A DNA stretch of 64,000 bases from an uncultured Alphaproteobacteria bacterium (GTDB lineage: Bacteria > Pseudomonadota > Alphaproteobacteria > Rhizobiales > Xanthobacteraceae). The stretch covers positions 2,539 through 66,538 of the forward strand of contig CAWFCM010000008.1 in NCBI GenBank assembly GCA_963814215.1, in the 5' to 3' direction. Position 1 is the stretch's first letter, and the number at the start of each line of letters is the position of its first letter. A model generated the notes under the pieces. That model was not told where the DNA came from. It did no database searches and was given only the letters and a program-made list of their open reading frames with translations. The position numbers and the translations under genes were made by a program. Below are positions 1,877 through 56,889 of the stretch, piece by piece.

Positions 1877-2869
1877 TTACTCGATCACCTCGTCGGCACG
1901 GGCGAGCAGGGTTGGCGGCACGGTGATGCCGAGCGCCTTGGCGGTCTTCAGATTGATCGCCAACTCGTACTTGGTCGGCGCCTGCACCGGCAGGTTAGCG
2001 GGCTTCTCGCTTTTGAGGATGCGGTCGACGTAGCCGGCGGCAAGTCGGTACTGGCCGATCAGTTCGGGGCCATAAGAGATTAGGCCGCCGGCGGCGACGA
2101 AGGAGCGGTAGGGATAAACCGCGGGCCAACTATGCCGCGCTGCGAGCGAGATGATCAGCTCGCGGTGAATCATCACCTGCGCGCTCACCACCACGATCAG
2201 GCCGCTGTTCGGCGAGCGCGCGAGCGCCGTCACGCCGCGCTCGATGTCGGCCGCGGTGTGCGGATCAATGGGGCTCAACTCCACCCCGGCCGCACGCGAG
2301 AAGGCTTGGATGACAGCCCATTGCCCCGCCCCGCCGCTGCTGGCGGCTGTCCGTATCACGCCGACGCGCTTGACCTGCGGCGCGACCTCCTTGAGCAGCT
2401 CAAGCCATTTTGCGCTCAGGTCGTAGTCGAACTGGAGGAAGCCAGTGGCGTTGCCGCCCGGCCGCGACAGACTATCGACAAAACCGGCGCCGACCGGATC
2501 GATGGCCTGCGCGAATACGACCGGAACGGTGCGGCTCGCCTGCAGCAGCGCCGGCATGGTCGGGCCGGCACCGGCCAGGACAACGTCCGGATTGAGCGCG
2601 ACCAGCTCGGCCGCATTCTTGCGCAGGCGCGCGACGTCGCCGGCGCTCCAACGAGTTTCCACCCGCACATTGCCGCCGACCTCCCAGCCCGCCCCCTGCA
2701 GCCCTTGTAGGAACGCCGCCATCCAGGCCTGTCCTTCCGGATCGTCGGCCGGAAGGTGCATCAGCACGCCGACGCGGCGCACCCGTTCCTGCGCGCGCGC
2801 AGCGAACGGCCAAGCAACCGAAGATGCCGCCGCGCCGCCAAGCCCTGCGATGAATTCGCGCCGCTTCAT
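1877..2869 (-). CDS. Orphan ABC-transporter substrate-binding protein (PF04392-like), Tat-type signal; paralog 1 of 3
   Basis: MKRREFIAGLGGAAASSVAWPFAARAQ signal, then PVGAGFVDSLSRPGGNATGF and C-terminal KPANLPVQAPTKYELAINLKTAKALGITVPPTLLARADEVIE. Its ATG overlaps the stop of the upstream paralog (ATGA). Confidence 0.85.
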   Translation of the reverse strand: MKRREFIAGLGGAAASSVAWPFAARAQERVRRVGVLMHLPADDPEGQAWMAAFLQGLQGAGWEVGGNVRVETRWSAGDVARLRKNAAELVALNPDVVLAGAGPTMPALLQASRTVPVVFAQAIDPVGAGFVDSLSRPGGNATGFLQFDYDLSAKWLELLKEVAPQVKRVGVIRTAASSGGAGQWAVIQAFSRAAGVELSPIDPHTAADIERGVTALARSPNSGLIVVVSAQVMIHRELIISLAARHSWPAVYPYRSFVAAGGLISYGPELIGQYRLAAGYVDRILKSEKPANLPVQAPTKYELAINLKTAKALGITVPPTLLARADEVIE

Positions 2870-4050
2870 TCGATTACCTCGTCGGCGCGGGCGAGCAGCG
2901 TCGGCGGCACGGTGATGCCTTGTGCTTTGGCGGTCTTGAGGTTGATCGCCAATTCCAACTTGGTCGCCGCCTGCACCGGCAGGTCGGCTGGCTTCTCGCC
3001 CTTAAGGATGCGATCAACATATCCGGCGGCTTGCCGGTAGGGATCGACGCGATCGGGCCCGTACGAGATTAGGCCACCGGCAGCAACAAAGAAGTAAGCA
3101 GGATATACAGCAGGCAACCTGTGCTGCGTTGTTACCCCGGCGATCAATTCGCGATGGTGCGACGTTCGCTGGCCGGCCGTCACGATCAGTCCGCCGTTGG
3201 GATTGCGCGCAAAACTCGCAACTGCGCGCTTGATTTCGTCCTCGCCGTCCACGCCGAGCGGGATCAACTCGACGCCAAAGCTGGTGGCAGCGCCTTGCAT
3301 CGCGCCGAACTGACCGATGCCTGATGGCGTGTTTGGATCGCGCAACACTGCCACGCGTGTAACGCCGGGCGCGATCTGCTTCAACAGCTCGATCCATTTA
3401 ACGCTGGTGCCGTACTCGAATTGAGTAAACCCGGTAACGTTGCCGCCGGGCCGCGCCAGGCTGTCCACGTATCCGGCGCCAACCGGGTCGGGCGCATTGC
3501 AAAATACGATCGGCACGGTGCGGGTTGCCAACAACAGTGGCCTGATCGCAACGCCTCCGGTCGCCAGCAGCGCATCCGGCCCAAGCGCGACCAATTCGGC
3601 GGCTTGCTTGCGCATGATGTCGGGATCGCCGCCCGCCCACCAGCGCTGATCGATCCGCAGGTTGCCTCCGAGGGTCCATCCGGCCTGCTTGAGCTCTTGC
3701 AGGAACACGCCGATGCGTTCCTGTCCATGCGCGTCTTCGGCTGCAAGTGTATTGAGGATGCCGATCCGCCGGGGCCGCACACGCTCGCCTTGCTGCGCGC
3801 GCGCGCCGCTCGGCCAAGGAACGGAAAGCGCCGCCACACCGCCAAGCCCCGCGATGAACTCCCGCCGCGATTTGTCATTCCGGGACGCGCGAAGCGCGGA
3901 CCCGGAATCGATACTCCCGGTGGTGGTTATGGGTTCCGGGTTCGCTCGCCATAGCGCGTCCTTCAGGGCGTTTACGCCCGTCTTCGACGGGCTATGGACG
4001 CGCGTACACGCGCTTATGGCTCGCGCCCCGGAATGACGGAGGATGGTCAT
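2866..4050 (-). CDS. PF04392-like substrate-binding protein, paralog 2; the first 59 codons are encoded by a repeat element, so the true start and functionality are uncertain
   Basis: The body from SRREFIAGLGGVAALSVPWPSGARAQ onward is homologous to paralog 1. The only in-frame start is the ATG at 4050 (ATGA overlap with paralog 3). No ATG/GTG/TTG lies in frame close to the signal peptide. Confidence 0.6.
   Translation of the reverse strand: MTILRHSGARAISACTRVHSPSKTGVNALKDALWRANPEPITTTGSIDSGSALRASRNDKSRREFIAGLGGVAALSVPWPSGARAQQGERVRPRRIGILNTLAAEDAHGQERIGVFLQELKQAGWTLGGNLRIDQRWWAGGDPDIMRKQAAELVALGPDALLATGGVAIRPLLLATRTVPIVFCNAPDPVGAGYVDSLARPGGNVTGFTQFEYGTSVKWIELLKQIAPGVTRVAVLRDPNTPSGIGQFGAMQGAATSFGVELIPLGVDGEDEIKRAVASFARNPNGGLIVTAGQRTSHHRELIAGVTTQHRLPAVYPAYFFVAAGGLISYGPDRVDPYRQAAGYVDRILKGEKPADLPVQAATKLELAINLKTAKAQGITVPPTLLARADEVIE
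3874..4037. repeat. MITE/REP-like element (164 bp) with terminal inverted repeats GTCATTCCGGG(A/G)CGCG ... CGCGCCCCGGAATGAC
   Basis: The terminal inverted repeats are read directly. The internal part shares GGAATC..ATAACCACCACCGGGAGTAT with 7585-7682 and ccatagcgcgtc...acgcgct.atgg with 5229-5270. Confidence 0.75.
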
Positions 4051-5035
4051 TCGATCACCTCGTCGGCGCGGGCAAGCACGGTCGCCGGGATGTCGAGGCC
4101 GAGCGCCTTGGCGGTCTTGAGGTTGATCGCGAGCCCGTACTTGGTCGGCGCCTGCACCGGCAGGTCGGCCGGCTTCTCGCCCTTGAGGATGCGATCGACG
4201 TACCCGGCTGCCTTCCGGAACTGGTCGATGTAATCAGGCCCGTAGGAGATCAAGCCGGCGGCGGCGACGAAGGAGCGGTCGGTGTAGACCGCGGGCAGCT
4301 TGTGCCGCGCCGCCAGCGTGATGATCAGATCGCGATGAAGCGTCGTGGCCCCGCTCGCCGTCACGATCAGACCGCCATTCGGAGTGCGCGCGAAGGCCGC
4401 GACGGCGCGCTCGATCTCGCCGGCGTCGCGCACGTTGACCGGGTTCACCTCCACCCGCAGCGACGGCGCCACGGCCTGGATGACGGCAAACTCGCTGGTT
4501 CCGGAGCCTTGGGTGGGATCCCGAAGGACCGCCGCTCGCGTCACGCCGGCGCGATCTGCTTGAGCAGTTCCAGCCGTTTCCCGGCCAGGCTGTATTCGAA
4601 CGACATGAAACCGGTGACGTTGCCGCCCGGCCGCGCCAAGCTGTCGACGAAGCCGGCGCCGACCGGATCGCTGGCGACCGGGAACACGATCGGCACGGTG
4701 CGGGTCGCCTGCAGCATCGCCCCCACGGCCGAGGCGCCATGGGCCAGAATGACGTCCGGCGCGAGCGCGGCCAATTCCGCCGCGTGTCTGCGAATCTCGG
4801 CGGCACTGGCCGTGGCCCAGCGCGTATCGATCCGCACGTTGCGGCCAATGGTCCAGCCCGATTGCCCCAGCCCCTGCAGGAACGCCCCGATGCGGGCGTG
4901 AAATTCCGGGTCGTCGGCGGCGGCGGGCAGAAGTATGCCGATGCGCCGCATGCGCTCGCCCTGCTGCGCACGTGCAACAAGCGGCCACGTCGCCGCCACC
5001 CCGGCAAGCAAAGTAATGAACGTGCGCCGCTTCAT
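4047..5035 (-). pseudogene. PF04392-like substrate-binding protein, paralog 3, disrupted by a 1-nt frameshift
   Basis: The N-terminal half is in frame 4541..5035 (MKRRTFITLLAG...LELLKQIAPA*). The C-terminal half is in frame 4047..~4560 (GVTRAAVLRDP...RADEVIE). Paralogs read IAPGVTR here, whereas this copy reads GCGCCGGCGTGA where GCGCCCGGCGTG would be expected. Confidence 0.8.
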
Positions 5036-7584: not shown

Positions 7585-7682
7585 GTCATTCCGGGGCGCG
7601 CCGAAGGCGCGAACCCGGAATCCATAACCACCACCGGGAGTATGGATTCCGGCTCTCGCGCTTCGCGCTCGGCCGGAATGAC
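7585..7682. repeat. MITE/REP-like element (98 bp) of the GTCATTCCGGGGCGCG family
   Basis: gtcattccggggcgcgccgaaggcgcgaacccggaatccataaccaccaccgggagtatggattccgg...ggccggaatgac. The inverted termini are read directly and the element is intergenic. Confidence 0.8.
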
Positions 7683-17129: not shown

Positions 17130-17307
17130 AGTTTGGGAAGCCTGAATCACGGCAAAGACAATGACAATAGCGGTCATGCGGATATCGCGTCAGCTAAGAA
17201 GTTAGATTCTTCTGTTTGCCGGTACGTATTGGACCGAGGCTCGTGTCCTGCCGCCGACGCTACTCGCTCGCGCCGACAAGGTGGTGGAATAGTCCCGATG
17301 TCGTTAT

Positions 17308-17414
17308 TGGCACATCGCGTCATTACGCGGCAACGCAGCAATTCGGTCGCTTTGGGAGCGAAGCGGACATTGAGCAAGCCGCCCTTGCTGAATGGAATTT
17401 ATGAGCGCGCGCCC
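17308..17414 (+). repeat. Dispersed ~107-bp repeat, copy A (TGGCAC..CGCGTCATT..GGTCGCT.TTGG..GC..AGCGGACAT..TATGAG..CGCGCCC)
   Basis: Aligns by eye over its full length with 32537-32644, and over parts with 20524-20625 (reverse), 23655-23733 and 60655-60720. Confidence 0.7.
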
Positions 17415-30603: not shown

Positions 30604-31023
30604 ATGACTACGAGCACCAAACCAAAATCCACCAGCCACACGGTACAGTTCCGCGACACGATAGAAGCTGGCGCCGAGCGCTCCAAGGAAGCGCTTGGAA
30701 CATTCAGCACTGCTACGAATGAAGCGGCGCACGCCGTGCAAGACTGCTGCTCGACTGCGCTCAAGGGAATGCAAGATTATAGCGGTAAGGTCGCCGAATT
30801 CACTCAGGCAAATATCAAATCGTACGTCGAATTTGTCCAAAAGCTGGCTGGCGTGAAGTCGCCTTCGGAATTCGTCGAGTTGTCAACTAGCCATACGCGA
30901 TATCAACTGAAGACGCTGGCCGAGCAGAGCAAGCAGCTTGCCGCGCTCGCCCAGCAAGTCACCCTAGATGCCGTCGAGCCACTCAAGACGGGTTTTGCGA
31001 AGGCGCCAATCGCGCCGCGCTGA
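30604..31023 (+). CDS. Phasin-family (PHA granule-associated) protein
   Basis: The ATG at 30604 is preceded by GGAAGGAAGG. The 139-aa helical protein carries FVQKLAGVKSPSEFVELSTSHTRYQLKTLAEQSKQLAALAQQ, typical of Phasin_2. Confidence 0.7.
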   Translation: MTTSTKPKSTSHTVQFRDTIEAGAERSKEALGTFSTATNEAAHAVQDCCSTALKGMQDYSGKVAEFTQANIKSYVEFVQKLAGVKSPSEFVELSTSHTRYQLKTLAEQSKQLAALAQQVTLDAVEPLKTGFAKAPIAPR

Positions 31024-31046
31024 TCCCCTATCTTGAACCTTTGTGC

Positions 31047-31238
31047 GGTCGGTGTGAGCCCCTGCTTCAAGCGGCTCGGGTGTTGCGCGATCTCGTGCCC
31101 AGTGACGGCCAGTGCTCCTGGCACAAAGCCCACATCCTGCATGTCGGCTATTGATGCTGTGGACGGCTCCTCCACCCGGCACGTGAGTGCCATGGATGTG
31201 GGCGCTGTTAAGGCTCCCACGATTGAGAGGAGCTCCCC
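31047..31238 (+). ncRNA. Candidate IS110 bridge/seek RNA in the left non-coding end (hypothesis)
   Basis: A 10-bp perfect stem (31128-31137 / 31194-31203) encloses a GGCAC-GTGA-GTGCC hairpin. Two 8-nt segments are complementary to the inferred element end and to the flanking target. Confidence 0.3.
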
Positions 31239-32270
31239 ATGCAGACAGTCACGACAATCGGTCTCGACATCGCCAAGTCAGTCTTCCAGGTGCACGGCGT
31301 TGATGCCGCCGACCAGGTGGTTATCCGCCGCCAGTTGAAGCGTCGCGCCGTCCTGGCGTTCTTCCAGAAGCTGTCACCATGTCTGGTTGGCATCGAGGCC
31401 TGCGCCTCGTCGCACTACTGGTCGCGCGAGCTCCAGGCACTCGGCCATACCGTTCGGCTGATGCCGCCGGCTTACGTGAAGCCCTACGTCAAACGGCAGA
31501 AGAACGACATGGCTGACGCTGAGGCGATTTGCGAAGCCGTCACCAGAGCCAACATGCGGTTCGTACCAACCAAGACGCCTGAGCAGCAGAGTTGCCTGAT
31601 GCTTCACCGCACACGCCATCTATTCATCCGCCAGCAGACTGCCGTGATTAATTCGATCCGGGCTCACCTTGCCGAGTTGGGCATTGTTGCTCCAGTCGGG
31701 CGCAAAGGGGTCACGGAGCTTCTGCATGTTGTTGCCGACCCGAGCGACAAACGGGTGCCGGAGGTTGCCCGCGCGTGCCTTGCCGCGCTCGGCACTCAAC
31801 TGCTCAGCCTCAAGGAGCAGATTGGGGAGTTCGACCGGATGATCATGGCTTGGCATCGGTCCGACGAGACGAGCAAACGGCTTCGTTACATTCCTGGGGT
31901 TGGTCCGATGCTGGCAACCGCCCTGGTTGCGAGTGTTGCCGACCCCAAGACCTTCCGATCCGGTCGCAATTTCTCGGCCTGGATCGGGCTCGTGCCGAAA
32001 CAGCATTCGAGTGGGGGCAAGGACAGGCTCGGCAGTATCAGCAAAAAGGGTGACCGCTATCTGCGCGGCCTGTTCGTGGCCGGCGCGCTCGCGGTCATCC
32101 GCTATGCCAAGATCCACGGCACCAAGCATCGGCCCTGGCTCACGGCACTGCTGGCTCGAAAGCCAACCAAGGTTGCGGCCATCGCGCTTGCCAACAAGCT
32201 CGCGCGGATGGCCTGGGCCATGATGGCGAGGGGTGAGCGCTACAGGAATCCCGTCGCGTTGGCGGCGTAA
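31239..32270 (+). CDS. IS110-family transposase
   Basis: 343 aa. GAGAGGAG lies upstream of the ATG. Motifs are IGLDIAKSVFQVHGVD, CLVGIEACASSHYW, YIPGVGPMLATALVASVADPKTFRSGRNFSAWIGLVPKQHSSGGKDRLGSISKKGDRYLR. Confidence 0.95.
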   Translation: MQTVTTIGLDIAKSVFQVHGVDAADQVVIRRQLKRRAVLAFFQKLSPCLVGIEACASSHYWSRELQALGHTVRLMPPAYVKPYVKRQKNDMADAEAICEAVTRANMRFVPTKTPEQQSCLMLHRTRHLFIRQQTAVINSIRAHLAELGIVAPVGRKGVTELLHVVADPSDKRVPEVARACLAALGTQLLSLKEQIGEFDRMIMAWHRSDETSKRLRYIPGVGPMLATALVASVADPKTFRSGRNFSAWIGLVPKQHSSGGKDRLGSISKKGDRYLRGLFVAGALAVIRYAKIHGTKHRPWLTALLARKPTKVAAIALANKLARMAWAMMARGERYRNPVALAA

Positions 32271-32536
32271 CGAGATCGCGCCGGACACCCGGCGTGATGT
32301 GAAGGTTGGGAGGGGCGAACAGCACGTAATGCAGAGCCGGTCGATCCGGCGGTCAGGACAACCCACATGTGCCATCGCATTGTTATCGAATGCGTGCTTT
32401 TGACCGGGACCTGATCCGCGGAGGGCATTATGGCCAGCGGTCATGTGAACCGCATCTAAAGGCCGAACACATGGCTGCACCGACCAATGCTGTAAAACGT
32501 GAAGAAAGCTCTTGCCAACTCGGAGCCGTCCACACA

Positions 32537-32644
32537 TGGCACTTCGCGTCATTTCGGACCCATGCCTTGAAAGGTCGCTATTGGAGGCACAGCGGACATT
32601 CAGCGAGCCGCGATGACAGAATCCGATGTATGAGTACGCGCCCC
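32537..32644 (+). repeat. Dispersed ~107-bp repeat, copy D
   Basis: tggcacttcgcgtcatttcgg...ggtcgctattggaggcacagcggacattcagcgagccgc...gtatgagtacgcgcccc is collinear with copy A (17308-17414). Confidence 0.7.
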
Positions 32645-32691
32645 AGGCTATCAGCCATCATGCCCGGCCATGACAGCAGCCAACTCATCAG

Positions 32692-32721
32692 AAAAACGGG
32701 CGCGCCGTCACCGGCGCGCCC
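32692..32721 (-). terminator. Rho-independent terminator downstream of the IorB-like gene
   Basis: On the minus strand a perfect 10-bp stem GGGCGCGCCG-GTGA-CGGCGCGCCC is followed by TTTTTC. Confidence 0.75.
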
Positions 32722-32741
32722 GCAATATTCTTCGAGCGGGC

Positions 32742-34959
32742 CTAACCCAGCGCCTTCTTTACCCGATCAGGCAAGAACGGCGTATGACGCAGCCGCACGC
32801 CGGTGAGCTCCGCCACCGCGCCCGCGATGGCAGGCGCAACCAGCGGTGTCGCCATCTGACCGGCGCCGGTCGGGTGGTTGTCGGTCTGGATCACCTCGAT
32901 GTGCATCGGCGGCACGTCCTTCATGCGCGGCACGTGGTAGTCGTAGAAGTTGCTCTGCTCGACCACGCCGTTCTTGACGGTGATGAGCTCGGTCAGGGCC
33001 ACGCCCAGGCCGTAGACGATGCTGCTCTCCTGCTGCGCGATCACGTTGTCGGGCTGCACCGCCACGCCGCAGTCGATGGTGCACCAGAAGTTATGCACCT
33101 TGATCTCGCCGCTGGAGCGGTTGAGCGAAATCTCGGCGATGCCGGCAACCTGCGAGCCGGAGTAGTCGAGATAGGCGAAGCCGAGCGCACGGCCGTCGCG
33201 CTTCCTGCCCCATTCGGCCATCTGCGCCACTCGCTCGACCACCTTGATGGCGCGTGGTGTGCCCTTCAGGAGTTCGAGATGGTAGGCGAGCGGGTCCTTG
33301 CCCTGTTTGCGCGCGATCTCGTCGACGAACGATTCGGTGGCAAACCGGTTGGCGATGAAGCTGATGCCGCGCAGCGGATTGGTGCGCACCCCGGTGTCGC
33401 GATAGAGCTGCTCCACCAGTTGATGCGGCACGTCGTAGCCGCGCAGGTCGGCACCCAGCATGGCGATGAAGTCCTTGCCGCCCGCCGCCTGGTAGCGCAC
33501 CGGGTCCATATAGGCCCCGACACGGTCGACGGCGATGCGGTGCTGCCAGGTGGTGAGCTTGCCGGAGTGGTCGAACCCCGCCTTCAGAGCATGGGCGGAG
33601 ATCGGACGGAACCGGCCGTTGGCGAAGTCGTCCTCACGCGTCCACATCACCTTCACCGGCCGGCCGGCTTCCTTCGACATCAGCACCGCGTCGATGATGA
33701 AATCGACGTCGCGGTTGCCGCGCCGGCCGAAGCCGCCGCCCATCAGCATGTCGTTGAGCTTCACCTTGTCCTTCGGGATGCCGAGGATCTTGGCAGGCGC
33801 CTCGGTCGCGGTGGTCTGGCTTTGCGTGCCAGCCCAGATTTCGACCGCATCGCCCGCCGGTGACACCGACGCGATGGCGTTCAGCGGCTCCATCTGCGCG
33901 TGATAGGCATAGTCGCAGCGGTATTCCGCCTCCATGCTGGAAGCCGCCTTCGGCATTTGCGCGCGGGGATCGCCGATCCGGCTCCACTCGGTGGACATGC
34001 GCATGCGGGTTCTTGGCGTCGGCGGCAAACCGCTCGATGCCCTTGTCGCTGTCGAAGCCCCAGGCCGTGCCGGTTCTGCTCCAGGTCACCGATTGCGTGA
34101 GCGCCCGGCGCGCGTCGAACGCCGCCCACGGCGTGTCGGCCAAGCACGCCGACGCCATACGGCAGGCGCACCACGCGAACCACCCCGCCAATCGCCTTGG
34201 CCTTGGCCTCGTCGATCTTGTCGGGGACCGAGCCTTCCACCGGCGCACGCAGCACGGTGCCGTACAGCATGTTCGGCACCTGCACGTCGATGCTGTAGCG
34301 GGCGGTGCCGTTGACCTTGCCCGGCAGCTCGACGCGCATCACGTCCTTGGTGATCAGCCGGAAGTCTTTTGCCTTCTTGAGCTGATCGGGCTTGATCTCC
34401 GGCGCCTTGGCCGGCACTTCCGCGATGGCGGCGATCTCGCCGTAGCTCAGCTTTCGGCCGGATTTCGCGTGCACCACCACGCTCGGCTCGGTGGTGAGTT
34501 CGTCGACCGGCACGCCCAGCGTCTTCGCCGCGTTGTCGAGCAGCACGCGTCGCACCTGCGCACCGAAGATGCGCAAGTGGCGTGTAGTAGCTCGTCACCG
34601 CGTTGGAGCCGGCGGTGTACATCATGCCCTGGAAGCCAGGATTGCCGTAGATCGCCTCGATCGGCGGCGCCGTCACGATCTTCACCTTCGACCAGTCGGC
34701 ATCGAGCTCCTCGGCGAGGATCAGCGGCAGCGAGGTCATCGACCCCTGCCCCATCTCGGTCGCCGCCGACATGATGATGATGGTGCCGTCGCTGCGCGAT
34801 GCTAACCCACGGACTGAGCGCCTTGCCGGTGCGGACGCTTGCCAGCACCGCGGCGCCGGCGCGGCCGCCAAGCGCGATCGCGAACGAGAGACCGGCGGCG
34901 CCGATCATCACCTGACGGCGGGAAACGTTCGCTTCGAGATGCTTGAGAGGCTTGTTCAT
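32742..34959 (-). pseudogene. Molybdopterin-binding large subunit of an IorB/aldehyde-oxidase-type oxidoreductase, disrupted by at least 4 frameshifts
   Basis: Homologous sequence is spread over five frames: 34447..34959, 34086..34871, 33881..34576, 33634..34248 and 32742..34028. Junctions lie near 34795, 34578, 34142 and 34000. Motifs include SAATEMGQGSMTSLPLILAEELD and HAQMEPLN. Confidence 0.85.
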
Positions 34960-50184: not shown

Positions 50185-50290
50185 ATGATCTGGTTGAGGC
50201 AAATTCTACAATAAAAACAACGTATTATACGCAATGCCGCGCCAGGTCGTGCTGCGCAGCATGTGCCTGCTATCGGCGCAGCGCGCCGGA

Positions 50291-50309
50291 ATTTTGTGCA
50301 GCGCAAAAT
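50291..50309. promoter_or_regulatory. Second copy of the 19-bp palindrome (candidate NtrC-like UAS)
   Basis: ATTTTGTGCAGCGCAAAAT is centred about 118 nt upstream of the nasT -24 GG. Confidence 0.55.
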
Positions 50310-50589
50310 TAGACGACACTGTGTCGATGGACACAAGATCGCCAAAATTTCCGCTGCGGCGCGGAACCCGAACCGCTGGCAGGAATTGTCTGCTTGGGTT
50401 GTAGTTCGAGCTGACCTTCAACCGGATCGACCGGGGGGTTTCAAATGGTGGATGGCCTGTCGTTATACGGGGTTGCGCGGTCGCCGCGCAATCCCAGCGA
50501 CTCTGTCTGCGCCGTCCCGCCATTTCTACGCCTTACATCCGCTTGCTGAAGAGAGGATTCCGCGCCCACGGCGCGGATGGGAGACCGCT

Positions 50590-53500
50590 ATGTCGAGCAC
50601 CGAAGAAGTCAGGCCAAAAGGAAGCCGGGGCGCACGTCTTGCAGTGCCGACCCAGCCCGCCATGAACGGTGAAACAGCGTTCCATCCGCACGAACTTCTT
50701 GCCGCGCTGCAGGCGATGCGCAGCGGCGACTTCTCGGTCCGAATGGCGGGCGACCGGCTCGGCATCGAAGGCAAAATCGCCGACACCTTCAACGAAATCG
50801 CCGCCGCTAACCAGCGCATGGCGCAGCAGCTTGAGCGCGTCGGGCAGCGCGTCGGCCGCGAAGGCAAAGCGAAGGACCGCGTCAAGTTCAGCCTGTCGCA
50901 AGGCGCCTGGGGCGAGATGGAAGGCTCCGTCAACACGCTGATCGATGATCTGCTCTGGCCGACCCGCGAAGTGACCCGCGCGGTCGCCGCGGTGGCGCAG
51001 GGCGATCTTATTCAGACTGTCCGGCTCGACGTCGACGGCCGGCCGCTGCAGGGCGAGTTCTTGCAATCAGCGACCATCGTCAACACCATGATCCGGCAAC
51101 TCGGCGTGTTCACCTCCGAAGTGACCCGCGTCGCGCGCGAAGTGGGCACCGAAGGCAAGCTCGGCGGCCAGGCGCAGGTGCCGGAGGTGACAGGCGTGTG
51201 GAAAGACCTCACCGAGAGCGTCAACTCGATGGCGTCGAACTTGACCGGTCAGGTGCGCAATCTAGCCGAGGTAACGATCGCAGTGGCGAATGGCGATTTG
51301 TCGAAGAAAATCACCGTGGACGTGCGCGGTGAAATCCTGCAACTCAAAGAAGCCATCAACACGATGGTGGACCAACTCCGTTCGTTCGCCTCGGAAGTGA
51401 CGCGCGTCGCGCGCGAGGTCGGCACCGACGGCAAACTCGGCGGTCAGGCGATCGTGCCCGGCGTCGCCGGAACCTGGAAGGATCTGACCGACAACGTCAA
51501 CCTGCTGGCGGGCAATCTGACCACGCAGGTCCGCAATATCGCGCAGGTGACGACCGCCGTCGCGCGCGGCGACCTGTCGCGCAAGATCACGGTGGACGTG
51601 AAAGGTGAAGTGCTGGAATTGAAGGACACCATTAACACGATGGTGGACCAGCTCAACGGCTTCGCCTCGGAAGTGACTCGCGTCGCCCGCGAGGTCGGAA
51701 CTGAAGGCAAACTCGGCGGCCAGGCCGCGGTGCCCGGCGTGGCCGGCACCTGGAAGGATCTGACCGACAGCGTGAACTTCATGGCCGGCAACTTGACATC
51801 GCAAGTCCGCAACATCGCGGACGTGGCGACCGCTATCGCCGGCGGCGATTTGTCGAAGAAGATTACCGTGACAGCCAGCGGCGAAATCCTGCAACTCAAG
51901 GAAACCGTCAACACGATGGTGGATCAGCTCAACGCCTTCGCCGGCGAAGTAACGCGCGTCGCGCGCGAGGTCGGCACCGAAGGCCGGCTGGGCGGCCAGG
52001 CCAACGTGCTCGGCGTCGCCGGCACCTGGAAGGATTTGACCGACTCGGTCAACTCGATGGCCTCGAACCTGACCGCCCAGGTCCGAAACATCGCGGAAGT
52101 GACGACGGCCGTCGCCGGCGGCGACCTGTCGAAAAAGATCACAGTCGACGTGCGCGGCGAAATCGCCGAGCTCAAGGACACCATCAACACCATGGTGGAC
52201 CAGCTCAACGCCTTCGCCGGCGAAGTGACGCGCGTGGCGCGCGAAGTCGGCACCGAAGGCAAGCTCGGCGGCCAGGCGCTGGTGCGCGGCGTGGCTGGCA
52301 CCTGGAAGGATTTGACCGACTCGGTGAACTCAATGGCCTCGAACCTCACCGGTCAGGTCCGCAACATCGCCGAAGTGGCGACCGCGGTCGCGCTGGGCGA
52401 CCTGTCGAAGAAGATCACCGTGAACGTGTCGGGCGAAATCCTTCAGCTCAAGGAAACGCTCAACACCATGGTGGACCAGCTCAACGCCTTCGCCGGCGAA
52501 GTGACCCGCGTCGCGCGCGAGGTCGGCACAGAAGGCAGGCTCGGCGGCCAGGCCGCGGTGCCGGGCGTCGCCGGCACCTGGAAGGATTTGACCGACAGCG
52601 TCAACTCGATGGCCGGCAACCTGACCGGCCAGGTCCGCAACATCGCCGAGGTGGCAACCGCCATCGCCGGCGGCGACCTGTCGCGCAAGATCACGGTCGA
52701 CGTGCGCGGCGAAATCCTTCAGCTCAAGGAAACGCTGAACACGATGGTGGACCAGCTCAACCGGTTCGCCGGCGAAGTGACGCGCGTCGCGCGCGAGGTC
52801 GGCACAGAAGGACGTCTTGGCGGCCAGGCCAACGTGCCGGGTGTCGCGGGCACCTGGAAGGACCTGACCGACAGCGTCAATTCGATGGCCGGCAACCTGA
52901 CCGCCCAAGTCCGCAACATCGCCGAAGTAACGACCGCCGTGGCGCGCGGCGACCTGTCGCGCAAGATCACCGTCGACGTGAAGGGCGAAATTCTCGAGCT
53001 CAAGAACACCATCAACACCATGGTGGACCAGCTCAACTCGTTCGCCTCCGAAGTGACGCGCGTTGCACGCGAGGTCGGCACCGAAGGCAAGCTCGGCGGC
53101 CAGGCGCAAGTGCCGGAAGTCGCAGGCACCTGGAAAGACTTGACCGACAACGTCAACTTCATGGCGTCGAACCTCACCGCCCAGGTCCGCAACATCGCCG
53201 AGGTCGCGACCGCCATCGCCGGCGGCGACCTGTCCAAGAAGATCACCGTCGACGTGCGCGGCGAGCTCCTGTTGCTCAAGGACACGCTCAACACCACGAC
53301 GGAGCAGCTCCGCTCGTTCGCCGCCGAAGTGACCCGCGTCGCGCGCGAGGTCGGCACCGAAGGCCGGCTCGGCGGTCAGGCGGTGGTGCCCGGCGCGGCC
53401 GGCACGTGGAAGGATCTCACCGACAACGTCAACCTGCTGGCCGCAAACCTCACCACGCAGGTCCGCAACATCGCCGAAGTGACCACCGCCGTCGCGCGCG

Positions 53501-56500
53501 GCGACCTTTCGCGCAAGATCTCGGTGGACGTGAAGGGCGAAATTCTGGAGCTCAAGAACACCATCAACACGATGGTGGACCAGCTCAACGCCTTCGCCGG
53601 CGAAGTGACCCGCGTCGCGCGCGAGGTCGGCACCGAAGGCCTGCTCGGCGGCCAGGCCGCGGTGCCCGGCGTCGCCGGCACGTGGAAAGACTTGACCGAC
53701 ACGGTGAACGTCATGGCCGCCAACCTCACCGAACAGGTGCGCGGCATCGTGAAGGTCGTGACCGCGGTCGCAAACGGCGACCTCAAGCAGAACCTCACCG
53801 TGAAGTCGAAGGGTGAAGTGGCCGCGCTCGCCGATACCATCAACAACATGACCGACACGCTGGCGACCTTCGCCGATCAGGTGACGTCGGTGGCGCGCGA
53901 GGTCGGCGTGGAAGGCCGGCTCGGCGGCCAGGCCAACGTGCCCGGCGCGGCCGGCACCTGGAAGGACTTGACCGGTAACGTGAACCTGCTGGCGACGAAC
54001 CTGACCACGCAGGTGCGCGCCATCGCCGAGGTGGCGACCGCAGTCACCAAGGGTGACCTGACGCGATCAATTCAGGCCGAGGCGCGCGGCGAGGTGGCCG
54101 AGCTCAAAGACAACATCAACACGATGATCGACAACCTGCGGCTCACCACCGACCGCAACACCGAGCAGGACTGGCTGAAGACGAACCTTGCCAAGTTCAC
54201 CAACATGCTCCAAGGCCAACGCGACATGGGGACCGTCGGCCGGCTGCTGCTGCACGAACTGACCCCGCTCGTCAACGCGCAGCTCGGCGTCATCTACCAG
54301 GTGGAAGGCACCGACAGCCTGCGGCTATTGTCCGGCTATGCGGACGACGGCGTGACCGGCCATCCGCAGCGGCTCCAATTCGGCGAAGGCTTGATCGGAC
54401 AATGCGCGGTGGACAAGCGACATCTCCTGATCACGGAAATGCCGACCAACGCGGTGCCAATCGGTTCGGCGCTGTTCAAGGTGGTTCCACGCAACATTAT
54501 CGTGCTGCCGGTGTTGTTCGAGGGCGAGGTTAAGGCCGTCATCGAGCTCGCCTCGGTATCCGCTTTTACCACGCTGCAAACAATGTTCCTGGAGCAACTC
54601 ACCGACAGCATCGGCATCGTGCTGAACAGCATCGAGGCCACGATGCAGACCGAAGGCCTGCTGAAGCAATCTCAGCAGCTCGCCGGCGAGCTTCAGACTC
54701 AGCAGAAAGAGCTGCAGCAGACTAACGAGCAGGTCGAGCAGAAGGCGCAACAGCTCGCCGAACGCAACGTGGAAGTTGAAAGGAAGAACCAGGAAATCGA
54801 GCAGGCACGCCGAGCGGTCGAGGAGAAGGCCTCGGAATTGGCGCTGACATCGAAGTACAAGTCCGAATTCCTGGCGAACATGTCCCACGAGCTGCGCACC
54901 CCACTCAACTCGATTCTTATTCTGGGTCAACAGCTTACCGAAAATCCGGACGGCAACCTGTCGGCCAAGCAGGTGGAATTCGCCCGCACCATCCACGGCG
55001 CCGGCACCGACCTGCTCAACCTAATCAGCGACATTCTCGACCTGTCGAAGATCGAGTCCGGCACCGTCACGGTCGACGTCCAGGAGGTGTACGTTACCAA
55101 CCTGGTCGAAGCGATCGCGCGTCCGTTCCGCCACGAGGCGGACAACCGCCAGCTCGCGTTCGACGTCGAGATTGATCCGCATCTCGGCCGCAGCATCCAC
55201 ACCGACACCAAGCGTTTGCAGCAGATCCTCAAGAACCTGCTGTCCAACGCCTTCAAGTTCACAGAGCAAGGCGGCGTCCGCCTCAAAGTGTCGGCCGTGG
55301 TCAGCGGCTGGAGCGCCGAGCATCCGGTGCTAAGCCAGTCGCCGGCGGTCGTTGCTTTCCAGGTGTCGGACTCCGGCATCGGCATTCCGCTGGAGAAGCA
55401 AAAGATAATCTTCGAGGCGTTCCAGCAGGCCGACGCCAGCACGAGCCGCAAATACGGCGGTACCGGCCTAGGCCTCGCGATCAGCCGCGAGCTGTCGCAA
55501 CTGCTCGGCGGCGAGATCCAACTGCACAGCACCCCCGGCTCGGGCAGCACGTTCACGATGTATCTGCCGCTTAAGTATGTCGGCTCCACCGCGTCGCAGC
55601 GTGCGCAAAACGAACCGTCCCAGCACAGGTCGCCGACAGTTCCCGCGCTCGTGGCGAGCGTGCCGGAGCGCGTCATCGAGCAAATCCCGGACGACAGGCT
55701 GGAGATCGAACCCGGCGACAGCATCCTGCTGATCGTCGAGGACGACCCGCACTACGCGCGGGTGATCATGGATCTCGCCCGCGAGAAGGGCTTCAAGGTT
55801 CTGGTTTCGACGCGGGGCGCCGACGCGCTCGACCTCGCCAAGCAGTTCCAGCCTTCGGCGGTTTCGCTCGACGTATTCCTGCCCGACATGCTCGGCTGGT
55901 CAGTGCTGAGCCAGCTCAAGCAGAACCCTCTGACCCGGCACATCCCGGTCCAGATCATCACGCTCGACGAGGACAGGCAGCACGCTTTGGCCAGCGGCGC
56001 CTTCTCGTTCGTCACCAAGCCGACCACGACCGAAGGCGTCGATGCCGCGTTGTCGCGCATCAAGGAATACGCGCAGCCGCGCCGCAAGCGCCTGCTGGTG
56101 GTGGAGGACAACGCCGCGGAGCGGGTGAGCATCACCGAGCTGCTCGGCCACGATGACATCGAGATCGTTACGGTGGGCACCGGCGGCGACGCACTGTCCA
56201 CATTGCGTAACGACCCGTGCGACTGCGTCGTGCTCGATCTCCGGCTGCCCGACATGTCCGGCTTCGAAGTGCTGGAGAAGATCCGCGAAGACGTCTCGCT
56301 GTCTGAAGTCCCGGTGATCGTGTTCACCGGACGCGAGCTGTCGGCGGAAGAAGACGCGCAACTTCACACCATGGCGCGCAGCATCGTGGTCAAGGGCGTG
56401 GAATCTCCGGAGCGTCTGCTCGACGAGACCGCGCTGTTCCTGCATCGCGTGGTGACCGACCTGCCGGCCGAGAAACAGCGCATGCTGGAACGCCTCAACA

Positions 56501-56889
56501 GCTCCGACGAGGATCTGGTGGGCCGCACCGCGCTGCTGGTCGACGATGACGCACGCAACATCTTTGCGCTCTCCAGCGTGCTGGAGCGCCGCGGCATGCA
56601 TGTGCTCACGGCGACAACCGGCAGCGAAGCGATCACGCTGGTCGAATCAACTCCTGACCTCGCGATCGTCCTGATGGACATCATGATGCCGGAAATGGAC
56701 GGCTACCAGACGATGGAGCTGATACGCCAGAAGCCGGCATTCCGCCGCCTGCCGATCATCGCGCTGACCGCGAAAGCGATGAAAGGCGACCGCGAGAAGT
56801 GCCTCGAGGCCGGCGCCTCCGACTATCTGGCAAAGCCGGTGAACACCGAACAACTGCTGACAGCGTTGCGCATGTGGCTGCACCGCTAG
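50590..56889 (+). CDS. Soluble poly-HAMP hybrid sensor histidine kinase (HAMP array - GAF - HisKA - HATPase - 3 receiver domains)
   Basis: Start is at ATG 50590 ([10 protein letters not shown]) within ORF 50263..56889. There are eleven 92-aa repeats, then a GAF-like region, the H-box [14 protein letters not shown], the G-boxes DSGIGIP and GGTGLGLAI, and three D-containing REC domains. No hydrophobic segments are seen. Confidence 0.9.
51109..54144 (+). repeat. Eleven tandem in-frame 276-bp (92-codon) repeats encoding paired HAMP domains
   Basis: Each unit begins F(A/T)(S/G)[13 protein letters not shown](K/R)LGGQA and ends NTMVDQL(N/R)x. 11 x 276 = 3036 bp, which fits 51109-54144 exactly. Confidence 0.9.

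What the first reader, a model, noticed from the sequence alone, without database searches (positions are those of the whole stretch)
31039..32536. IS110-family element with long structured non-coding ends: candidate bridge (seek) RNA with matches to its own end and to the flank
The transposase (31239-32270) is unambiguous IS110 family. Established knowledge: IS110-family recombinases were recently shown to use an element-encoded non-coding bridge RNA whose two loops pair with the donor ends and with the target.

Seen here: about 200 nt upstream and about 266 nt downstream of the ORF are non-coding.
- The upstream part has a perfect 10-bp stem (31128-31137 gcccacatcc / 31194-31203 ggatgtgggc) enclosing a GGCAC-GTGA-GTGCC hairpin.
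- GCACAAAG (31121-31128) is complementary to CTTTGTGC (31039-31046), at the inferred left terminus.
- AGTGCCAT (31186-31193) is complementary to ATGGCACT (32536-32543), at the inferred right junction.
- ACACATGGC occurs at 32467-32475 and again across the right junction (32532-32540).

The boundaries are inferred. The right flank begins a copy of the ~107-bp repeat (TGGCAC...), and the left flank resembles what precedes TGGCAC in copy A.

Caveat: single 8-mer complementarities in a search space of this size are expected by chance about once. Only their positions make them suggestive.
Basis: partly seen in the sequence, partly recalled or inferred. Interest (0 to 1): 0.65.

Follow-up and report, generated by a model that had tools for sequence, protein, structure and literature searches.

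The report
IS1111-type insertion sequence with 3' bridge RNA

Summary
The inferred boundaries are wrong. Seventy-one related copies place the element at 31152-32536 (1385 bp), with a shared TG on each side and 13-bp subterminal inverted repeats. The left non-coding end is 87 nt and the right is 266 nt, which is the IS1111 layout.

The guide RNA is in the 3' end (core 32340-32484). Its fold has 98% of cells paired and 11 pairs with compensatory changes. In one loop, ACATGTGCCA is complementary to the right flank TGGCAC.., and TGCTTTTG has the same sense as the left flank plus TG. Both segments co-vary with the flanks across 57 independent insertions (z = 8.9 and 10.4; 0 of 5000 permutations reach the observed value).

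A second, multi-branch loop carries GCATTA and AACACATG, which match the two element ends.

A covariance model built here finds the same RNA in five independent plasmid elements, and the guides predict the flanks of the three whose junctions were read cleanly. The verdict is a new member of a known kind. RNA expression was not tested.

The parts
31024..31151 (+). Host intergenic DNA downstream of a phasin gene (30586/30604-31023). It contains REP-like units (TGGCAC AAAGCCCACAT ... ATGTCGGCTAT). The last 5-6 bases (31146-31151) are the left half of the target. This stretch is not part of the element.
   Evidence: Pfam PF09361 for the upstream ORF. Homology with 80 loci stops at about 31141-31152. 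The left flanks differ between copies but share the consensus (A)TGTCCGCTTt.
31152..32536 (+). The insertion sequence, 1385 bp. The TG at 31152-31153 and the TG at 32537-32538 are the core dinucleotide shared by donor and target. One copy is counted in the element and one in the flank.
   Evidence: Termini come from 71 complete copies. Joining 31151 to 32537 gives a sequence collinear with the uninterrupted repeat copy at 17270-17410. There is no other copy in the window.
31158..31170 (+). Left subterminal inverted repeat TGTGGACGGCTCC, 6 nt from the left end.
   Evidence: Read directly from the sequence. Nearly invariant in the related copies.
31178..31191 (+). Its function is unknown. It does not co-vary with the target.
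   Evidence: RNAalifold on 35 left ends: 5 pairs; pair 31/40 changes AU to GC in 10 sequences. The hairpin is unchanged in copies with TGGCCC or GGGGG targets.
31167..31173 (+). GCTCCTC, complementary to the Shine-Dalgarno region GAGGAGC at 31227-31233. This is a possible translation-masking pairing (tentative).
   Evidence: Read directly from the sequence. In one search, L070 has GGCTCCCC together with GGGGAGCC, a change on both sides. The pairing was not tested further.
31239..32270 (+). Transposase/recombinase, 343 aa. It has DEDD residues D10, E53, D90, D93 and the motif G250-L-x-P-x4-S258-G259.
   Evidence: PF01548 and PF02371. NF033542 'IS110 family RNA-guided transposase', 352.6 bits against a cut-off of 140. 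The C-terminal domain aligns with the ISCro4 and IS621 recombinases in the PDB, with the SG aligned. The identical protein is found at 8 or more distinct genomic sites.
32277..32296 (+). Hairpin CGCGCCGG-ACAC-CCGGCGTG just after the stop codon. Its role is unknown: it could be the 5' part of a longer RNA or a processing or termination element.
   Evidence: Helix 1: 6 pairs, 3 of them with compensatory changes, 92.9% of cells paired.
32340..32484 (+). Core of the bridge/seek RNA. The outer stem GUCG/CGAC (32340-43 / 32481-84) encloses the target-binding arm and the donor-binding multi-branch loop.
   Evidence: RNAalifold. Pair counts: 37 pairs, 98.1% paired against 25-39% when the partners are slid, 11 pairs with changes on both sides, 0 of 500 shuffles reach the observed value. 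Covariance model R1 scores 178 bits here.
32346..32421 (+). Target-binding arm. The stem is 32346-57 / 32410-21, followed by CCC/GGG at 32362-64 / 32406-08. An internal loop carries the two guides, and the arm is capped by the hairpin 32377-32393.
   Evidence: Helices 3-5, with compensatory changes in 5 pairs.
32365..32374 (+). 5' target guide ACATGTGCCA. It is complementary to the top strand of core plus right target (TG GCAC at 32537-32542, with weaker matches beyond).
   Evidence: Co-varies with the right flank across 57 insertions: 6.86 matches against 5.83 when permuted, z = 8.9, 0 of 5000 permutations reach it. At position +5 the match rate is 0.96 against 0.42 expected. GUGCCA goes with TGGCAC, GGGCCA with TGGCCC, and CCCCCA with xGGGGG.
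32395..32402 (+). 3' target guide TGCTTTTG. It has the same sense as left target plus core, so it would pair with the bottom strand. The window target is GGCTAT+TG, with one mismatch at -2.
   Evidence: 6.72 matches against 5.57 when permuted, z = 10.4, 0 of 5000 permutations reach it. At position -4 the match rate is 0.72 against 0.35, and the first core base matches in 57 of 57.
32425..32430 (+). 5' donor guide GCAUUA. It is complementary to the left end TGATGC (31152-31157), with one G-U wobble at the second core base.
   Evidence: Invariant in 61 copies. An independent Croceicoccus element has GCAUCA, a perfect complement. The geometry parallels the 5' target guide.
32432..32464 (+). Donor-loop hairpin GGCC[GCGGU-CAUGUGA-ACCGC]..GGCC.
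   Evidence: Helices 6-7. Pair 219/232 changes UA to CG in 16 sequences.
32466..32475 (+). 3' donor guide AACACAUG, which has the same sense as the right end ACACA (32532-36) plus core TG. It is followed by GC (32474-75), which matches the first two bases of the right target and may be a handshake-like extension (tentative).
   Evidence: Invariant except in L037, L044 and L046, which have ACACACG and also a CG core at the right junction and in the 3' target guide. The two bases after the core are GC with a GC target in 54 of 61 copies. They are GG only in the two copies whose targets are GG or GA.
32512..32517 (+). TTGCCA, a candidate -35 box. After circularisation it would lie 17 nt upstream of CATGAT (32535-36 plus 31152-55), forming a junction promoter for the transposase gene (inferred).
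   Evidence: A scan of the joined ends gives TTGCCA-17-CATGAT, 9 of 12 matches, spanning the junction. TTGCCA or TTGACA is conserved in all copies. No sigma-70-like promoter is found in the linear element.
32522..32534 (+). Right subterminal inverted repeat GGAGCCGTCCACA, 2 nt from the right end.
   Evidence: Read directly from the sequence. Positions 255-266 of the first row of the alignment are invariant.
32537..32643 (+). Right flank: the core TG, the right target GCAC.., and a copy of the host's ~107-bp REP-like repeat.
   Evidence: 71% identical to 17308-17414. Aligned.

Best explanation
Window 31152-32536 is an intact IS1111-group member of the IS110 family. It has inserted, in a fixed orientation and without a target duplication beyond a shared TG, into a REP-like host repeat, between ...GGCTAT and GCAC....

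Its 3' non-coding end encodes a bridge (seek) RNA of about 145 nt or more. One arm is a stem with an internal loop that carries two target guides:
- GUGCCA (with a weaker extension) would pair with the top strand of core plus right target.
- UGCUUUUG would pair with the bottom strand of left target plus core.

A second, multi-branch loop carries GCAUUA and AACACAUG. These would pair in the same way with the joined ends of the excised circle (...ACACA-TG-ATGC...).

By analogy with IS621, ISEc11 and ISPa11, the DEDD/Ser recombinase bound to this RNA would align circle and target and exchange strands across the TG core.

What is shown here: the termini, the subterminal repeats, the fold with its covariation, the guide-flank covariation, the multi-copy status and the target consensus.

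What is inferred: that the RNA is made, its ends, the donor-loop pairing, the circular intermediate and the junction promoter.
For: - Family: PF01548 and PF02371; NF033542 at 352.6 bits; the SG motif aligns with ISCro4 and IS621.
- Termini: 71 copies; contig breaks at both ends of the element; the reconstructed empty site is collinear with repeat copy A.
- Fold: 98.1% of cells paired against 25-39% in slid controls; 11 pairs with compensatory changes; 0 of 500 shuffles reach the observed value.
- Guide-flank covariation across 57 independent insertions: z = 8.9 and 10.4; 0 of 5000 permutations reach the observed value.
[quoted passage not shown] Their guides predict their own flanks. In L095, TGGCGCAT is predicted and found. 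In L097, AGCAAA+CG is predicted on the left and CGGCCCC on the right, and both are found. In L099, TGGCCCAT is found.
- Activity: the same element (at least 99.7% identical, with identical guides) sits at 8 or more different sites, all GCT(A/T)T|TG|GCAC or close to it.
- Fit to the literature: the order of the guides (top-strand match 5' of bottom-strand match) and the 3' location match the IS1111 seekRNA description (bioRxiv 10.1101/2024.04.26.591405). Donor-binding bases in a multi-loop match Durrant et al. (PMC11208160).
Against: - There is no expression data. No promoter-like site for the RNA was found in the linear element, and the RNA ends are unknown.
- The donor ends are almost invariant, so the donor-loop pairing rests on complementarity, on one wobble-free variant (L098) and on one lineage in which the core base changes in concert. 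It does not rest on broad covariation.
- The window's own 3' target guide has a mismatch at -2 (U opposite a target A), and so do most sister copies.
- Rfam 15 gave no hit. Whether Rfam 15 holds a bridge-RNA family could not be checked, so this is uninformative rather than negative.
- As a single sequence, the fold is only modestly more stable than shuffles (z = -2.1).
Confidence: 0.88

Rival explanations
1. One reading: the bridge RNA is encoded in about 200 nt upstream of the ORF. It would be built on the 10-bp stem 31128-37/31194-203 and the GGCAC hairpin, with guides GCACAAAG and AGTGCCAT pairing with the element's ends at 31039 and 32536.
For: The strings exist. A perfect 10-bp stem is uncommon by chance, occurring in 1.45% of shuffles. 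The GGCAC hairpin is conserved, with compensatory changes.
Against: The element starts at 31152, so 31039-31151 is host DNA. Sister copies with at least 99.7% identity have unrelated left flanks that lack GCCCACATCC. The hairpin arm GTGCC stays the same, or becomes GCGCC, regardless of whether the target is TGGCAC, TGGCCC or GGGGG. The segments that do track the flanks are in the 3' end.
Confidence: 0.02
2. The 3' RNA guides target choice only, as a short seekRNA. The element ends would be recognised by the protein through the 13-bp subterminal inverted repeats. On this view the GCAUUA and AACACAUG matches to the ends are conserved for structural or other reasons.
For: The donor guides and donor ends are nearly invariant, so pairing cannot be shown by covariation. 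IS1111 members have long subterminal repeats, and Siddiquee et al. suggest that end recognition may differ from the IS110 group; their predominant seekRNAs are only 82-96 nt.
Against: The two donor segments sit in the same geometry as the two target guides: 5' segment, 1-2 nt, hairpin, 1 nt, then 6 nt plus core. In L037, L044 and L046 the core base in AACACA(C)G changes together with the core in the 3' target guide and at the right junction. L098 has a wobble-free GCAUCA. Durrant et al. report donor-binding bases in a multi-loop for many IS1111 orthologues.
Confidence: 0.1
3. The conserved 3' end acts as DNA rather than RNA, for example as transposase-binding sites or a terminator. On this view the match to the flanks reflects sequence carried over from the target, or homologous recombination with repeats.
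For: The target-arm hairpin followed by UGCUUUUG scores as a terminator-like site. The element lives in repeats, where recombination could shuffle flanks.
Against: Eleven helix pairs change on both sides while keeping their pairing, which is a signature of RNA or single-strand structure. One guide is an antisense match and the other a sense match to adjacent halves of the target, as in experimentally characterised seek and bridge RNAs. The guides lie 135-170 nt inside the element, so they are not carried-over flank.
Confidence: 0.02

Closest known systems
IS1111-group insertion sequences with a downstream seekRNA (ISEc11, ISPa11, ISKpn4, ISPst6; Siddiquee et al. 2024, bioRxiv 10.1101/2024.04.26.591405 / Nat Commun 15:5235)
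   Same: - A transposase of 330-350 aa with a GL-P----SG motif.
- Subterminal inverted repeats with short terminal extensions.
- A short left end and a long right end.
- A guide RNA downstream of the transposase gene.
- The top-strand match lies 5' of the bottom-strand match, and the two overlap at the crossover.
- Orientation-specific insertion into a conserved site; ISPa11 also targets REP elements.
   Different: - The host is different (soil Xanthobacteraceae/Bradyrhizobium-like bacteria), and so is the target (GCTTT|TG|GCAC in a local REP-like repeat).
- Relatedness to those named elements was not measured here.
- There is no experimental evidence for the RNA.
IS621 bridge RNA (IS110 group; Durrant et al. 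2024 PMC11208160; Hiraizumi et al. 2024 PMC11208158)
   Same: - A DEDD plus Ser recombinase.
- One RNA with a target loop and a donor loop, each with one guide per strand that overlaps a 2-nt core.
- Insertion into a REP-type target.
- Possible handshake bases next to the core.
   Different: - Only distant protein similarity (PDB E = 1e-6, C-terminal domain only).
- The RNA is in the right end rather than the left end.
- The order of the guides within a loop is reversed.
- The donor guides sit in a multi-branch junction rather than a simple internal loop.
- The subterminal repeats are long (13 bp) rather than 2-3 bp.
- The core is TG rather than CT.
ISPpu9/ISPpu10 of Pseudomonas putida (IS110 family, inserted in REP; PMC12288879)
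   Same: Multi-copy IS110-family elements that insert into repetitive extragenic palindromes. A small RNA gene lies downstream of the transposase gene.
   Different: ISPpu9 has extra orphan copies of its RNA gene. No orphan copy was found in this window with model R1. Sequence relatedness was not tested.

Membership tests
IS110 family (DEDD RNA-guided transposases) | N-terminal RuvC-like DEDD domain plus C-terminal Transposase_20 domain | tested here: met
   PF01548 (E = 3e-14) and PF02371 (E = 1e-24). NF033542 at 352.6 bits against a cut-off of 140.
IS110 family (DEDD RNA-guided transposases) | Catalytic D, E, D, D and the Ser of the conserved SG motif | tested here: met
   D10, E53, D90, D93 and S258-G259 were read from the translation. 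The SG aligns with the SG of ISCro4. The DEDD assignment is by motif position, not by a structural alignment.
IS110 family (DEDD RNA-guided transposases) | Site- and orientation-specific insertion with no target duplication other than a core shared by donor and target | tested here: met
   Flank consensus from 57-71 insertions. The same element occurs at 8 or more sites. The empty-site reconstruction is collinear with a paralogous repeat. No orthologous empty site was found.
IS1111 group | Subterminal inverted repeats of 7-17 bp with short terminal extensions | tested here: met
   13 bp: 31158-31170 and 32522-32534. The extensions are 6 and 2 nt including or excluding the core. The repeats are conserved in all copies.
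IS1111 group | The longer non-coding region lies downstream of the transposase gene | tested here: met
   87 nt upstream against 266 nt downstream, using the termini.
IS1111 group | Transposase of 330-350 aa with the GL-P----S(T)G motif | tested here: met
   343 aa; G250-L-V-P-K-Q-H-S-S258-G259. The motif is as described.
IS1111 group | Transposase clusters phylogenetically with named IS1111 members | not tested
Bridge/seek RNA | Conserved structured RNA in the long non-coding end | tested here: met
   (covariation and slid controls). Model R1 recovers the RNA in 5 independent elements.
Bridge/seek RNA | [quoted passage not shown] | tested here: met
   (z = 8.9 and 10.4). Independent predictions were verified in L095, L097 and L099.
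Bridge/seek RNA | A second pair of segments matching the joined donor ends | tested here: inconclusive
   Complementarity is present: GCAUUA with TGATGC (one wobble) and ACACAUG equal to the right end plus core. Variation is too small for a covariation test. Support comes from L098 and from the L037/L044/L046 lineage.
Bridge/seek RNA | The RNA is expressed, binds the transposase and is required for transposition; a circular intermediate forms | not testable with these tools
   Needs RNA sequencing, co-purification, outward PCR and transposition assays.
Bridge/seek RNA | Match to a curated or published covariance model | tested here: inconclusive
   Rfam 15 gave no hit at gathering score over the window and only noise at E < 10 in 30800-32800. 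The published IS110/IS1111 models were not available.

The most novel reading that the evidence does not exclude
In this IS1111-type RNA, the bottom-strand (3') guide of each loop appears to run one or two bases past the core into the sequence of the other partner. The two guides would then spell the two post-insertion junctions: target loop ..GCUUU-UG-A(U), and donor loop ACACA-UG-GC.

This would be a 'handshake' placed on the opposite guide from IS621. It would imply that IS1111 enzymes exchange the two strands in the reverse order.

The set of closely related natural elements with different guides (GCAC, GCCC, GGGG, GCGC; cores TG and CG) would be a ready-made series for testing this.
Probability: 0.15. 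Interest if true: 0.45.

Novelty: new member of a known kind. Interest (0 to 1): 0.3.

Why it matters
The practical result is a correct annotation: exact termini, core, subterminal repeats, the guide RNA with its four guide segments, and the host repeat that serves as the landing site.

The family of relatives collected here shows natural retargeting among closely related recombinases (65-93% amino-acid identity to this one). Four right-target classes and two core variants occur, each mirrored in the RNA. This is a compact comparative data set for the less-studied IS1111 branch of bridge/seek recombinases.

It does not reveal a new kind of system.

Tried and rejected
- Rfam 15 at gathering score over the whole window, and at E < 10 over 30800-32800, gave nothing relevant.
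- I looked for an orthologous empty site through contigs that carry the neighbouring phasin gene. Every contig either carries the element at the same place or breaks at its edge, so no empty site was found. Two look-ups failed for technical reasons.
- I tested whether the 5'-UTR hairpin (31178-91) acts as a guide. This was rejected because it does not co-vary with the target.
- I tested a long-range helix, 32305-15 with 32509-19, that would close a longer RNA. It is compatible (98.5% paired), but only one cell changes on both sides and the shuffles do about as well. It is left as tentative.
- RNAalifold's small pairings inside the donor loop (203/212 and 247-251/258-262) were replaced by GGCC/GGCC (32432-35 / 32461-64). 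Neither version has covariation support.
- I searched the window for orphan copies of the RNA with model R1 and with blastn, and found none.
- The pattern GCTTTTGGCAC with up to 2 mismatches is not enriched in the window: 16 matches against 19.6 expected. The short target alone does not mark the repeat family.
- No sigma-70-like promoter for the RNA was found in the linear element.
Full report
Every quoted string is in the sequence at the stated coordinates. The ORF 31239-32270 is an IS110-family transposase. It matches PF01548 and PF02371 and NCBIfam NF033542, 'IS110 family RNA-guided transposase', at 352.6 bits against a cut-off of 140. Its C-terminal domain aligns weakly with the solved ISCro4 and IS621 recombinases, with the SG motif in register. 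Reading the translation gives D10, E53, D90, D93 and G250-L-x-P-x4-S258-G259. The last motif is the one described for IS1111-type transposases.

**Where the element really ends.** A scan of one genome per species returned 80 loci encoding relatives with 65-93% amino-acid identity, mostly soil alphaproteobacterial MAGs and Bradyrhizobium.
- DNA homology with the window begins at 31137-31152 and ends near 32540.
- In the junction listings, 69 of the 77 left junctions that could be listed begin TGATGCTGTGGACGGCTCC (window 31152), and the copies end GCCGTCCACACA (window 32536). What lies outside differs from locus to locus.
- Three contigs start exactly at the equivalent of 31152.
- A contig carrying the neighbouring phasin gene stops exactly at the equivalent of 31151. 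These are typical assembly breaks at a repeat.

The element is therefore 31152-32536 (1385 bp). TG follows the left flank (31152-53) and TG follows the right end (32537-38), so TG is the core shared by donor and target. Thirteen-base subterminal inverted repeats lie at 31158-31170 and 32522-32534. The left non-coding end is 87 nt and the right is 266 nt. A short left end, a long right end and long subterminal repeats define the IS1111 group.

**Consequences for the four complementarities.**
- The 10-bp stem pairs host DNA (31128-37) with element DNA (31194-203). By shuffling, such a stem arises in 1.45% of trials. Sister copies of the same element sit in unrelated flanks without it, so it is a local coincidence.
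- CTTTGTGC/GCACAAAG is wholly host DNA. GCACAAAG is part of a REP-like unit (TGGCAC AAAG...).
- AGTGCCAT is the 3' arm of a real, conserved hairpin in the transposase 5' UTR (31178-91), where pair 31/40 changes AU to GC in 10 of 35 sequences. That hairpin stays GTGCC or GCGCC whether the target is TGGCAC, TGGCCC or GGGGG, so it is not a guide.
- Only the ACACATGGC repeat survives, and it is explained below.

**The 3' end is a structured RNA.** I aligned 61 distinct 3' ends. RNAalifold, with one manual change in the donor loop, gives the following fold:
- a hairpin after the stop codon (32277-96);
- an outer stem GUCG/CGAC (32340-43 / 32481-84);
- a long arm with stem 32346-57 / 32410-21, then CCC/GGG, then a large internal loop capped by hairpin 32377-93;
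- a second hairpin (32432-64).

On this structure 98.1% of the 2254 cells form standard pairs, against 25-39% when the partners are slid by 1-3 columns. Eleven pairs show changes on both sides, and none of 500 shuffles reaches the observed values. As a single sequence the fold is only modestly more stable than shuffles (z = -2.1).

**The loop segments track the flanks.** In the internal loop, the 5' segment (32365-74, ACATGTGCCA) is the reverse complement of core plus right flank (TGGCAC..). The 3' segment (32395-402, TGCTTTTG) has the same sense as left flank plus core.

The 5' segment follows the right flank across relatives:
- It reads GUGCCA where the flank is TGGCAC.
- It reads GGGCCA where the flank is TGGCCC.
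- It reads CCCCCA where the flank is xGGGGG.

The 3' segment follows the left flank in the same way. L013 has TGCTTTTG with flank TGCTTT|TG. L018 has TGCTTCTG with flank CGCTTC|TG. L037 has ..CTTTCG with a CG core.

Over 57 distinct insertions the mean number of matches is 6.86 against 5.83 for permuted pairings (z = 8.9) for the 5' segment, and 6.72 against 5.57 (z = 10.4) for the 3' segment. None of 5000 permutations reaches either value. The most variable positions carry the signal: +5 matches in 96% against 42% expected, and -4 in 72% against 35%. Because each insertion is an independent site, shared ancestry of the elements does not explain this.

A top-strand match lying 5' of a bottom-strand match is the order reported for IS1111 seekRNAs. 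It is the reverse of the IS110 group (abstract).

**The donor loop.** Two invariant segments flank the second hairpin.
- GCAUUA (32425-30) is complementary to the left end TGATGC, with one G-U wobble.
- AACACAUG (32466-73) has the same sense as the right end ACACA plus TG.

Their spacing relative to the hairpin mirrors that of the target guides. The donor ends hardly vary, so covariation cannot be tested broadly. There are two supporting cases. In L037, L044 and L046 the core base changes to C in this guide, in the 3' target guide and at the right junction together. An independent Croceicoccus element has a wobble-free GCAUCA. The guides lie in a multi-branch junction rather than a plain internal loop, as Durrant et al. 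note for many IS1111 orthologues.

The two bases after the core (GC, 32474-75) equal the first two bases of the right target in 54 of 61 copies. They are GG only in the two copies whose targets begin GG or GA. It resembles the handshake guides described for IS621. The evidence amounts to a single lineage, so I treat this reading as tentative.

**Independent test.** I built a covariance model from the 150-position core (R1). In the window it hits only 32336-32488, at 178 bits. [quoted passage not shown]

Guides read from those hits predict the flanks of the three elements whose junctions were read cleanly:
- L095: TGGCGCAT is predicted and found.
- L097: AGCAAA plus CG is predicted on the left and CGGCCCC on the right, and both are found.
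- L099: TGGCCCAT is found.

The other two agree in part. L096 matches 8 of 11 predicted right-flank positions. In L098 the right flank CGGCCC matches, while the left guide matches 4 of 6 flank bases and one of the two core bases.

**Copy number and target.** The identical transposase is encoded at many places in a set of ENA assemblies. Ten places were read. They give eight distinct insertion sites, including the window's own, with elements at least 99.7% identical and identical guides. The sites read GCT(A/T)T|TG|GCAC or close variants, inside REP-like units of the form TGGCAC-(A/T)(A/T)AGCGGACAT ... ATGTCCGCT.

Joining 31151 to 32537 gives a sequence collinear with the uninterrupted repeat at 17270-17410. 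The window's own site and most sister sites have A at -2 where the guide has U, so that position seems tolerant. No orthologous empty site was recovered.

**Other inferred features.** After circularisation, TTGCCA (32512-17) would lie 17 nt upstream of CATGAT, which spans the junction. This would form a junction promoter of the kind described for ISEc11 (reference seen). No comparable promoter exists in the linear element.

GCTCCTC (31167-73) can pair with the Shine-Dalgarno region (31227-33). One relative changes both sides. These points are inferences.

**Verdict.** This is an intact and probably active IS1111-group insertion sequence with a canonical 3' bridge/seek RNA, lodged in a host REP-like repeat between convergent genes. 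It is a new member of a known kind. RNA expression, the RNA ends, the circular intermediate and the donor-loop pairing remain to be shown experimentally.

Noticed in passing
window 50263-56889 (+), repeats at 51072-54141: Eleven tandem 276-nt repeats (64-77% identical to the first copy) lie inside a 2208-aa ORF. They encode an array of 11 HAMP domains in a hybrid histidine kinase that also has GAF, HisKA, HATPase_c and three receiver domains. This is a poly-HAMP sensor.
   Followed up: partly
window 17308-17414 and 32537-32643; also 31114-31151: The host carries a ~107-bp REP-like repeat, with two copies in the window that are 71% identical. It is built from units TGGCAC-..AGCGGACAT...ATGTCCGCT... 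The same kind of unit flanks most related elements in other genomes, so this repeat family is the landing pad for the whole IS lineage.
   Followed up: partly
L037, L044, L045, L046, L097, L098 (junctions): Where the core differs between the two junctions, five of these six copies pair TG with CG: TG left and CG right in four copies, and CG left and TG right in one. The sixth copy, L046, has CG at both junctions. In L097 the target-loop guides read CG and the donor-loop guide reads TG. This is the pattern expected if a mismatched 2-nt core forms a heteroduplex that segregates at replication. The sample is small.
   Followed up: partly
window 3899-3945 and 7609-7655: A 47-nt inverted repeat, 94% complementary, with its arms 3.7 kb apart (GACCCGGAATCGATACTCCCGGTGGTGG...). 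It may be another dispersed repeat or the ends of a mobile unit.
   Followed up: no
window 1881-4846: Three roughly 1-kb direct repeats (63-80% identical), spaced 989-1181 nt apart. They are probably tandem paralogous genes (families D6-D9).
   Followed up: no
L084 (JGI contig, 2379 nt): This contig has the same left flank and element as the window but a different right flank (tggcacaaagcggaca). It is either a second arrangement or a chimeric assembly across the repeated element.
   Followed up: no
window 32277-32296: A hairpin with compensatory changes lies 6 nt after the transposase stop codon, upstream of the guide-RNA core. Its role is unknown; it could be a processing site, a terminator or part of a longer RNA form (helix 1).
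   Followed up: partly
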